Source: the human T2T-CHM13v2.0 reference genome, Homo sapiens | Reading direction: 5' to 3' (one strand) | Assembly: GCF_009914755.1 (NCBI RefSeq) | Contig: NC_060942.1 | Length of the DNA stretch: 64,000 nt | Shown here: piece after piece, positions 26,248-26,728 of the stretch | Layout of the letters: each line of letters starts with the position of its first letter | How positions within the stretch are numbered: position 1 is the first letter of the stretch | Notes under the pieces: generated by a model | Database searches by the model: none | Told to the model about the DNA's origin: nothing | Seen by the model: only the letters and a program-made list of their open reading frames with translations | Position numbers and translations under genes: made by a program

Positions 26248-26728
26248 CCACCCACCTCGGCCTCCCAAAAGTCAAAGTCAAAGTCAAAGTCACCAAAACT
26301 TTTAAGCCAGAGTCTGCTAACCAAATGTGACTGAGGTTGGGGAGAGCCCCAACTTGAGAACAATAATGAACAATTGTTGTATGAACAATTGTTAGAGACA
26401 GCTAACAGAGTCCAGGTCCCACAATGATTATTAGTCCTAGGATGCTGCCCAACAGTCCACACTGCAGGAAGACCTAGAGGGAAAAGACTACGAGCTCTTG
26501 CTGCGATTTGAAAACAGAGTCACTGACAGCCCACGTGTCATGGAAGTAGCAGACAGCTAATCACAAACAACCTGCGGGCACAATGACCTCATTCCACACA
26601 TAGCACCCTCAGACAGCACCATCACACCTGAGGGGCCATGTGGCCACGCACGAGGAAAGACCCTGTGGGCAGGGAGGGGCTGGCGAGGGAAGGTGCTGTG
26701 CTATGGCAGGCTCCCCGGGCTTGCAAGG
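26248..26728. other. Complex templated-insertion junction
   Basis: 26267-26336 = 51067-51124 (+, with extra AAAGTC units); 26406-26462 = inverted SLC35G CDS; 26460-26557, 26610-26674 and 26670-26728 = reverse complement of 56106-56203, 56049-56113 and 55929-55987. Confidence 0.93.

What the first reader, a model, noticed from the sequence alone, without database searches (positions are those of the whole stretch)
26248..26728. Patchwork of about 8 templated fragments sewing the LCR16a/NPIP duplication into its landing site
Seen, in order after the Alu ends at 26247: (1) antisense Alu 22-mer, 26248-26269; (2) copy of 51067-51124 with AAAGTC slipped from 2 to 4 units; (3) unknown ~70 bp, 26337-26405; (4) inverted SLC35G CDS, 26406-26462; (5) inverted 56106-56203, microhomology CAC; (6) unknown 52 bp, 26558-26609; (7) inverted 56049-56113, re-entering with CAGACAGC duplicated; (8) a 66-bp skip via CAGGG to inverted 55929-55987, then a GG join into SLC35G. 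Only 3 mismatches in ~280 templated bases, so the event is recent. Established: short serial templated insertions with microhomology and slippage are the signature of FoSTeS/MMBIR or polymerase-theta repair. Inference: this is a base-level record of how an interchromosomal core-duplicon insertion was integrated, using target-locus templates 25-30 kb downstream.
Basis: partly seen in the sequence, partly recalled or inferred. Interest (0 to 1): 0.88.

Follow-up and report, generated by a model that had tools for sequence, protein, structure and literature searches.

The report
Patchwork scar of chr16-to-chr18 duplication
A 481-base scar on human chromosome 18 is stitched from eight short copied pieces and marks where a 29,000-base segment of chromosome 16 was pasted in; it is real and informative about how such duplications form, but its existence and likely cause were already published in 2022.

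Summary
Window 26248-26728 sits between the end of a ~29.1 kb chr16 (LCR16a/NPIPB1P) copy, which ends at 26247, and a truncated SLC35G4 copy that starts at 26727. All eight pieces are now assigned except an Alu-like 22-mer.

They are contiguous on chr16 and lie 2.35-3.85 kb beyond the donor breakpoint. They are interleaved with inverted chr18 pieces from 29 kb downstream and from SLC35G4 itself, next to the break.

Joins carry 0-7 bp of microhomology. Copying on each template resumes within 1-10 nt of where it left. All sources are intact. The insert is flanked by a 4.7/4.2 kb direct duplication of the target, and the left junction is clean (CTA). Piece, flank and donor divergences (0.9%, 1.17%, 1.75-1.9%) fit one event.

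Best reading: one replicative event with serial template switches (MMBIR/FoSTeS-like), confidence about 0.6. The main rival is end-joining of replicated fragments (breakage-replication/fusion).

[quoted passage not shown] Only the base-level anatomy is new. Interest is modest.

The parts
1..26247 (.). chr16-derived LCR16a block (NPIPB1P on the minus strand). It begins outside the window at about -2848 and totals ~29.1 kb. The right donor breakpoint is inside an Alu.
   Evidence: Mismatch-only divergence from the chr16 copy at 21.68-21.71 Mb is 1.75-1.9%. All 11 paralog alignments that reach this end stop at 26247.
26248..26269 (-). Alu-like 22-mer, antisense to the preceding Alu. Its source is undetermined.
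   Evidence: the best exact matches are 19-mers in several Alus. The donor's next Alu, 41 nt past the breakpoint, matches 20/22 in 6 of 11 paralogs examined.
26268..26291 (+). AAAGTC x4 tract. The source has x2, so this is a replication-slippage gain of two units. It overlaps the A-run of the Alu-like piece.
26280..26336 (+). Direct copy of window 51068-51124 (chr18, 24.3 kb downstream of the break), 1 mismatch.
   Evidence: Single genomic source.
26334..26405 (+). Piece A: chr16 donor sequence (C16:21711635-21711706 in the 21.7 Mb paralog), 2 mismatches. Joined to the previous piece through AGG.
26406..26462 (-). Inverted copy of SLC35G4 coding sequence, window -7552..-7608, 57/57. It abuts the target breakpoint (-7559). 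The join to piece A is blunt.
26460..26557 (-). Inverted copy of window 56203-56106, 98/98. Joined through CAC.
26551..26609 (+). Piece B: chr16 donor sequence (C16:21711697-21711755), 1 mismatch. It is contiguous with piece A on chr16. Joined through AGACAGC (7 bp).
26610..26674 (-). Inverted copy of window 56113-56049, 2 mismatches. It resumes the 56-kb template where it was left. The join to piece B is blunt.
26670..26728 (-). Inverted copy of window 55987-55929, 59/59, after a 61-nt skip on the same template through CAGGG.
26727..30897 (+). Distal copy (D, 4171 bp) of the duplicated chr18 target: the 3' half of SLC35G4 from codon 176, its poly(A), about 2.4 kb, then an SVA and 12 nt. Joined through GG.
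   Evidence: The proximal copy (P, 4712 bp) lies at window -7559..-2848, outside the window.
51068..51124 (+). Intact source of piece 26280-26336.
55929..56203 (+). Intact, contiguous 275-bp source of the three inverted pieces.

Best explanation
The 481 bp are the scar of one replicative copy-and-paste event that placed about 29.1 kb of chr16 (LCR16a/NPIP) into chr18. It is dated from the literature to the African-ape ancestor.

Inferred sequence of events:
- A nascent DNA end arose at a stalled or broken fork inside the SLC35G4 retrocopy, at window-equivalent -7555 (codon 175/176).
- That end made a run of short, poorly processive copies on whatever single-stranded template lay nearby. These were the opposite side of the break itself, two sites 24 and 29 kb downstream on chr18, an Alu, and the chr16 donor.
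- It switched at 0-7 nt microhomologies, slipped in an AAAGTC repeat, and skipped 61 nt between two CAGGG.
- It alternated between the chr16 and chr18 templates. Each time it resumed within 1-10 nt of the point it had left, pivoting on a 7-nt AGACAGC that both templates share.
- It then copied 29 kb of chr16 processively and returned to chr18 4.7 kb behind the break through a 3-nt CTA. This re-copied 4.7 kb and left the insert flanked by a direct target duplication.

Shown: the piece map, the sources, the microhomologies, the intact sources, the flanking duplication and the equal ages.

Inferred: that a polymerase switched templates rather than fragments being ligated; the direction of travel (I favour right-to-left, starting at the SLC35G4 break, about 60:40); and the enzymes involved.

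The scar has no function of its own.
For: 1. Every base of 26248-26728 except the Alu-like 22-mer is assigned to a source, and the sources are unique or best-matching.
2. All sources are still intact in place, so the pieces were copied, not cut.
3. Pieces A and B are contiguous on chr16. In 11 of 11 paralogs where both the main block and A/B are listed, they lie on the same side and strand, 2,354-3,848 bp beyond the donor breakpoint (coordinates). The donor template therefore extended past the insert.
4. The chr16 pieces keep the donor's order and orientation, and the three 56-kb pieces keep theirs, although the two series are interleaved. Under random order and orientation this has probability 1/192.
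5. 6 of 8 scorable joins have at least 2 bp of microhomology, against 0.156 expected per join (binomial P 3e-4). The mean is 2.9 bp against 0.67 expected.
6. Slippage within a template occurs twice: +2 AAAGTC units and a 61-nt skip at CAGGG.
7. The insert is flanked by a direct 4712/4171-bp target duplication, and the left junction is clean with CTA.
8. The ages agree. chr18-templated pieces show 3/336 mismatches (0.9%). The flanks show 35/2997 (1.17%). The Poisson P of 3 or fewer mismatches at the flank rate is 0.45. chr16 pieces show 3/131, against 1.75-1.9% for the main block.
9. Damert 2022 (PMC9132208, section 8) reached the same class of mechanism independently. Her hg38 coordinates leave a 483-bp junction, so a second assembly carries it.
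Against: - Two of the eight joins are blunt (A to the SLC35G4 piece, and B to the 56-kb piece). Blunt joins are easier for end-joining than for primed switching.
- Resumption almost exactly where a template was left is a 'tiling' pattern. Zhang et al. 2026 (PMC12807874, section 13 read) argue that tiling speaks for fragmentation plus end-joining and against random template switching.
- The inverted SLC35G4 piece ends within 8 nt of the target breakpoint, which that model also predicts.
- No ape or pre-integration sequence could be examined, so a single event is inferred only from equal divergence on few sites.
- The source of the 22-mer is unknown.
- The direction of travel cannot be read from the sequence.
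Confidence: 0.6

Rival explanations
1. Breakage-replication/fusion. Replicated DNA near broken ends on chr18 and chr16 was fragmented into short pieces. The pieces and the 29-kb segment were then joined by microhomology-mediated end-joining in one cell cycle. The 4.7 kb flanking duplication comes from the two sisters of a replicated stretch being broken at different points.
For: - The pieces tile their sources with 1-10 nt overlaps or a 61-nt gap.
- The SLC35G4 piece lies directly beside the target breakpoint, and A/B lie less than 4 kb from the donor breakpoint. Zhang et al. 2026 describe such placement for insertion chains (PMC12807874, section 13).
- There is a mix of blunt and microhomology joins.
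- Piece sizes of 57-98 bp are in the range of that paper's short insertions.
Against: - Order and orientation are kept within both interleaved series (P = 1/192 under random joining). In the cited data tiles scatter over junctions and strands.
- The 51-kb and 56-kb sources are 24-29 kb from any large-segment breakpoint and show no rearrangement.
- Slippage in AAAGTC needs synthesis.
Confidence: 0.17
2. Two-ended double-strand break in SLC35G4 repaired by polymerase-theta-type synthesis-dependent end-joining. Repeated anneal-extend-dissociate cycles built the short pieces, and the 29-kb chr16 copy was captured during the same repair.
For: - Microhomologies of 2-7 bp, slippage, and a snap-back-like inverted copy of sequence next to the break.
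- The two SLC35G4 breakpoints (-7552 and -7559) look like the two sides of one break.
Against: - From my own knowledge, not tested here: polymerase-theta insertions are usually under about 50 bp and copied from within a few hundred bp of the break.
- Here the pieces are 57-98 bp and come from 24-29 kb away and from another chromosome.
- A 29-kb copy and a 4.7 kb target duplication need processive replication.
Confidence: 0.08
3. Stepwise origin. A simpler LCR16a insertion, reaching at least to piece B on chr16, came first. Later deletions and small insertions at the same site built the patchwork.
For: A and B could be remnants of a longer original insert. Their divergence from chr16 (3/131) is nominally higher than that of the chr18 pieces from their sources (3/336).
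Against: - The two series are mutually interleaved, so no sequence of simple nested insertions gives the order found.
- The chr18-templated pieces are as old as the flanking duplication: 0.9% against 1.17%, P = 0.45.
- Several independent hits on one 480-bp spot are unparsimonious.
Confidence: 0.08
4. Excised circular (Alu x Alu) intermediate. The 29-kb donor segment was looped out between two direct Alus, opened in the hybrid Alu and inserted.
For: The two donor breakpoints lie in same-orientation Alus and are only 19 nt apart in aligned Alu coordinates. Circular intermediates have been proposed for human segmental duplications (PMC7450558, abstract in search listing only).
Against: Pieces A and B come from chr16 2.35-3.85 kb outside the would-be circle. 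A circle also does not explain the 4.7 kb target duplication.
Confidence: 0.04

Closest known systems
The same locus as described by Damert 2022, Mol Biol Evol 39:msac103 (PMC9132208). I read section 8, the Fig. 5 legend and Table S6. I could not see the figure itself or the supplementary-figure PDF.
   Same: The chr18 lcr16a insert of 29.0 kb (hg38 chr18:11,614,824-11,643,852) is flanked by direct repeats of 4694 and 4201 bp, bounded by an SVA_B and by the 3' transduction of an SVA_C. There is a 'complex junction' at the 3' side that includes an inverted part of the transduction and an unrelated segment. FoSTeS/MMBIR is proposed.
   Different: [quoted passage not shown] Here there are eight pieces and nine joins mapped to the base. 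Two of the pieces are chr16 donor sequence from beyond the breakpoint, interleaved with the chr18 pieces. The paper's '9nt extra' at the 5' junction is, in this assembly, part of the duplicated target (GGGAGCAGG in P against GGGAGCGGG in D), so that junction is clean with CTA microhomology.
MMBIR / FoSTeS complex junctions of human copy-number variants. Hastings et al. 2009 (PMC2621351): abstract in search listing only. Lee et al. 2007: recalled.
   Same: Serial short templated stretches, microhomology at the joins, mixed orientation, intact sources within tens of kb, net gain.
   Different: This is an evolutionary, fixed, interchromosomal event tied to a core duplicon. It has an unusually long chain (nine joins in 481 bp) and two templates used alternately.
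[quoted passage not shown] Zhang et al. 2026 (PMC12807874): abstract and section 13 read.
   Same: Chain of sub-100-bp insertions at a duplication junction, tiling of source sites, pieces next to breakpoints, joins with microhomology.
   Different: Here the tiles stay in one junction, in source order and in one orientation. Two source sites have no nearby large breakpoint.
LCR16a duplicative transposition by double template switching at Alu repeats. Fornezza and Giannuzzi 2025 (bioRxiv 10.1101/2025.07.09.663898): abstract read.
   Same: LCR16a-containing segment moved by a replication-based mechanism, with donor breakpoints in Alus.
   Different: That work is intrachromosomal (16p) and the switches are at homologous Alus. 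Here the target-side joins are at microhomology, not Alu homology, and the move is to another chromosome.

Membership tests
MMBIR/FoSTeS-type complex rearrangement junction | Two or more templated segments between the main breakpoints | tested here: met
   Seven pieces have identified sources, plus one Alu-like piece.
MMBIR/FoSTeS-type complex rearrangement junction | Microhomology at joins above chance | tested here: met
   6 of 8 joins have at least 2 bp; binomial P 3e-4. Two joins are blunt.
MMBIR/FoSTeS-type complex rearrangement junction | Sources retained (copy, not cut) | tested here: met
   51068-51124, 55929-56203, SLC35G4 and the chr16 A+B stretch are all intact.
MMBIR/FoSTeS-type complex rearrangement junction | All pieces added to one nascent strand in one event | not testable with these tools
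   Supported only indirectly, by equal divergence and co-linearity. It needs ape assemblies or strand-specific mutation signatures.
Breakage-replication/fusion insertion chain | Insertions tile their origin sites with little gap or overlap, next to ancestral DNA ends | tested here: inconclusive
   Overlaps are 1-10 nt and there is one 61-nt gap. The SLC35G4 piece abuts the target break and A/B are less than 4 kb from the donor break. The 51-kb and 56-kb sources are 24-29 kb from any breakpoint.
Breakage-replication/fusion insertion chain | No strand or order coordination among neighbouring insertions | tested here: not met
   Both series keep source order and orientation (1/192 by chance).
Polymerase-theta templated insertion | Short insertions (tens of bp) copied from the immediate flanks of the break. 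This criterion is recalled, not taken from a call. | tested here: not met
   Pieces are 57-98 bp. Only the SLC35G4 piece is break-adjacent; the others come from 24-29 kb away or from chr16.
LCR16a core-duplicon duplicative transposition | Copy of the LCR16a/NPIP core at a new site, with Alu at the donor boundaries | tested here: met
   There are 29.1 kb of chr16 homology (1.75-1.9% mismatch-only divergence from the one paralog measured) containing NPIPB1P. Both donor breakpoints are inside Alus.
SVA-recombination-mediated lcr16a mobilisation (Damert 2022) | Breakpoint inside an SVA, used for recombination | tested here: not met
   The left target breakpoint is 12 nt after the SVA poly(A), and the join is to an Alu through CTA. 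Damert also states that the SVAs played no role here.

The most novel reading that the evidence does not exclude
The junction is a natural base-level recording that the chr16 donor chromosome itself, not an excised linear or circular copy, lay in the same repair or replication focus as the broken chr18 site. One nascent strand ping-ponged between the two templates. It returned each time to the still-exposed point of departure, pivoting on a shared AGACAGC, before becoming processive. That would make it a germline test case for deciding between template switching and fragment joining as the way core duplicons seed interspersed segmental duplications. It would also place the initiating lesion inside the SVA-transduced SLC35G4 retrocopy.
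Probability: 0.45. Interest if true: 0.5.

Novelty: already known. Interest (0 to 1): 0.33.

Why it matters
How core duplicons such as LCR16a spread and seed interspersed segmental duplications is still debated. Proposals include Alu recombination, SVA recombination, circular intermediates, replicative switching and, most recently, breakage-replication/fusion.

The solitary chr18 copy is the cleanest LCR16a integration in the human genome. It has one insert, both junctions are readable, all templates can be identified, and it has not propagated since.

The base-level map adds three points to the published account:
- Donor sequence from beyond the breakpoint is part of the scar.
- Two templates were used alternately, with near-exact resumption on each.
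- The other junction is clean.

These are concrete constraints on any model, but the case is a single locus and the general conclusion (a replication-based complex junction) is already in print.

Tried and rejected
- **Whole genome as a file:** I used own-genome searches and fetched stretches instead.
- **Johnson et al. 2006 (PMC1693797):** not held, so what it says about the chr18 breakpoint is unknown to me.
- **Source of the 22-mer:** exact-match search in 84 kb of chr18 and 40 kb of chr16 gave only generic 19-mers. The donor's next Alu matches 20/22 at best. The source is left undetermined.
- **Apparent 96.3% identity of the flanking repeats:** this suggested the flanks were older than the pieces. 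It was rejected because the figure came from misregistered SVA VNTR units. Outside the VNTR the divergence is 1.17%.
- **An ~880-bp 'extra' stretch at the left junction:** rejected. It is the longer VNTR and tail of the same SVA.
- **Chr16 boundary at 1942:** this holds only for the one paralog fetched. Other paralogs carry the homology back to -2850.
- **Piece B from a dispersed repeat:** chr2 and chrX match about 42-46 bp at 98%. Rejected in favour of chr16, because chr16 matches 58/59 and B is contiguous with A there.
- **Papers naming SLC35G4 with NPIP:** 4 papers. I opened one and found only a gene-table row. None of the four titles or abstract starts listed concerns this junction.
- **No ape genome is held,** so the comparative test could not be run.

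Full report
**What is there**

The window is T2T-CHM13 chr18:11780001-11844000. Its own genome could be searched and sampled.

I compared window 16500-26300 with the whole genome. Eleven chr16 copies of the LCR16a block align up to query base 9748, which is window 26247. None of the listed alignments goes further, although the query ran to 26300.

On the other side, chr16 homology begins outside the window at -2850 in six paralogs. The insert is therefore about 29.1 kb. Against the one paralog I fetched whole (C16:21.68-21.72 Mb), mismatch-only divergence is 1.75-1.9%.

From 26727 onward the sequence is a direct repeat of chr18 sequence that lies upstream of the insert, at window -7559 onward. 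The finding's 481 bp (26248-26728) sit exactly between these two blocks.

**The map**

In order after the chr16 block ends in an Alu at 26247:

| Piece | Window | Source | Fit | Join to next piece |
|---|---|---|---|---|
| 1 | 26248-26269 | Alu-like 22-mer, antisense to that Alu, source undetermined | - | A-run overlap |
| 2 | 26268-26291, then 26280-26336 | AAAGTC x4 (x2 in source), then copy of window 51068-51124 | 1 mismatch | AGG |
| 3 (A) | 26334-26405 | chr16 C16:21711635-21711706 | 2 mismatches | blunt |
| 4 | 26406-26462 | inverted SLC35G4, window -7552..-7608 | 57/57 | CAC |
| 5 | 26460-26557 | inverted 56203-56106 | 98/98 | AGACAGC |
| 6 (B) | 26551-26609 | chr16 C16:21711697-21711755 | 1 mismatch | blunt |
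| 7 | 26610-26674 | inverted 56113-56049 | 2 mismatches | CAGGG |
| 8 | 26670-26728 | inverted 55987-55929, after a 61-nt skip | 59/59 | GG, into the SLC35G4 repeat |

BLAST E-values for the within-window matches are 1e-24 to 2e-51, so chance is not an issue.

In the genome-wide search (43 matches), the 51-kb and 56-kb pieces each have a single source. The SLC35G piece matches chr18 SLC35G4 at 100% and the other three family members at 96-98%. No chr16 paralog carries the patchwork.

The two "unknown" stretches are chr16 sequence, and they are contiguous with each other on chr16.

In all 11 paralogs where both the main block and A/B are listed, A/B lie on the same strand, beyond the donor breakpoint. 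The distance is 3,819-3,848 bp in eight paralogs and 2,354-2,375 bp in three (coordinates). A twelfth A/B locus, at 76.0 Mb, has no main-block partner among the listed rows.

The 1.5 kb on either side of A/B on chr16 match nothing specific in the window. A/B are therefore isolated snippets, not the edge of a longer retained block.

So the scar interleaves two series:
- chr16: main block, then A, then B.
- chr18 inverted: 56203 down to 55929, in three pieces.

Each series is in source order and in one orientation. Each resumes within 1-10 nt of where it stopped. The exact overlap depends on which neighbour is credited with the shared AGACAGC.

**The target**

The duplicated chr18 target runs from SLC35G4 codon 176 to 12 nt past the poly(A) of an SVA. 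The break falls between the gene's two EamA domains.

The proximal copy (P) is 4712 bp and the distal copy (D) is 4171 bp. The difference is in SVA VNTR units.

The first BLAST figure of 96.3% identity for these repeats was an artefact of VNTR misregistration. Outside the VNTR they differ at 35 of 2997 sites (1.17%, or 0.75% without CpG sites).

The left junction is simple. The chr18 ...GGGAGCAGG-CTA joins the chr16 Alu at CTA-CTAAAAATAC. D reads GGGAGCGGGCTA at the same place. The "9nt extra" in Damert's Table S6 is therefore target sequence with one substitution.

The inverted SLC35G4 piece ends at -7552 and the distal repeat starts at -7559. They look like the two sides of one lesion.

**One event or several**

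- The chr18-templated pieces differ from their sources at 3 of 336 sites (0.9%). At the flank rate the expectation is 3.9, and P(3 or fewer) is 0.45.
- The chr16 pieces differ at 3 of 131 sites, against 1.75-1.9% for the main block.

These numbers are small, but nothing suggests different ages. The interleaving cannot be produced by simple nested insertions.

**Mechanism**

Four features point to copying by a nascent strand that switched templates repeatedly:
- The sources are intact.
- Slippage occurs within templates.
- Microhomology is enriched: 6 of 8 joins have at least 2 bp, P 3e-4.
- Order and orientation are preserved in both series: 1/192 under random joining.

The copying then became processive over 29 kb and re-entered chr18 4.7 kb behind the starting point. 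That re-entry explains the flanking duplication.

I favour a start at the SLC35G4 lesion, reading right to left in the window, for two reasons. Short unstable steps are expected early in break-induced synthesis. I recall this from yeast work and from the MMBIR model; I saw only the abstract of Hastings 2009 in a listing. In addition, a template end at the lesion would explain why the inverted SLC35G4 copy stops there. This polarity is an inference, at about 60:40.

**Against this reading**

- Two joins are blunt.
- The near-exact resumption is the "tiling" that Zhang et al. 2026 use to argue for fragmentation followed by microhomology-mediated end-joining.
- A break-adjacent piece is one of the hallmarks of their model.

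I keep that model as the main rival (0.17). What speaks against it here is the kept order and orientation, and the absence of any breakpoint near the 51-kb and 56-kb sources.

Other rivals:
- A circular Alu x Alu intermediate is suggested by an odd fact. The two donor breakpoints lie in co-oriented Alus only 19 nt apart in Alu coordinates. But A/B come from outside such a circle.

**What is known**

[quoted passage not shown] She concludes that only FoSTeS/MMBIR-type models fit. Her hg38 coordinates leave 483 bp between insert and repeat, against 481 bp here, so a second assembly carries the junction. I could not see her Fig. 5 inset or the supplementary-figure PDF, which may show more than the text says.
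- Cantsilieris 2020 (PMC7419210, passages) states that human, chimpanzee and gorilla share the chr18 copy.
- A 2025 preprint (passages) calls it African-ape-specific and reports low-level expression.
- A review (PMC9917352, passage) confirms that the AMAC1/SLC35G family spread by SVA 3' transduction.
- Two searches (LCR16a with "chromosome 18"; SLC35G4 with NPIP) gave nine hits. Of the five papers I opened (four, one, read as passages or sections), only Damert 2022 mentions this junction, and none gives a base-level map. The other hits were not opened, and subscription journals are not covered.

**Verdict**

The locus and its mechanism class are already published.
- the full eight-piece map;
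- the donor origin of the two unknown pieces;
- the alternating use of two templates around a shared 7-mer;
- the clean left junction;
- the equal-age argument.

Noticed in passing
window 26703-27218 (+): An ATG inside the inverted 56-kb piece opens a 171-aa frame. It runs in phase into the second EamA domain of the truncated SLC35G4 copy (Pfam EamA, E 6e-12). It is a chimeric ORF created by the junction. No evidence of expression was sought.
   Followed up: partly
L027 (C16:21332277-21333276) and C16:21707700-21707830; window 26164-26247: The two chr16 donor breakpoints lie in two co-oriented Alus about 29-31 kb apart. In aligned Alu coordinates they are only 19 nt apart. This hints at an Alu x Alu circle or an Alu hotspot and is unexplained.
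   Followed up: partly
window 26396-26402, 26551-26557, 26611-26617: The heptamer AGACAGC occurs three times in the scar: at the end of piece A, at the join from the 56-kb piece to B, and at the restart of the 56-kb template. It is present at the departure point on both source templates.
   Followed up: yes
L022:7129-7152 (window -2871..-2848) and window 30867-30897: The left junction is clean, with CTA microhomology 12 nt after the SVA poly(A). The nine bases listed as 'extra' in Damert's Table S6 are present, with one substitution, in the distal repeat.
   Followed up: yes
L022 about 5450-7150 (window -4550..-2850) versus window 29743-30897: The SVA at the end of the duplicated target has a VNTR about 540 bp longer in the proximal copy. 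This accounts for the 4712 versus 4171 bp repeat lengths and for a misleading 96% BLAST identity.
   Followed up: yes
window 26727-26938: The first 212 bp of the distal SLC35G4 copy are identical to the proximal gene, whereas the first 500 aligned bases hold 9 differences. This could be chance or local gene conversion.
   Followed up: no
chr18 flanking repeats (window -7559..-2848 and 26727-30897): Damert's Table S6 links this locus to the deletion variants dgv53n16 and esv3641803. A chimpanzee structural-variant paper lists SLC35G4 under 'deletion' (PMC7140787, table row only). Recombination between the two repeats would remove the whole insert.
   Followed up: no
window 37234-37290: The annotated MIR7153 lies 10 kb downstream of the junction, between it and the template sources. 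It was not examined.
   Followed up: no
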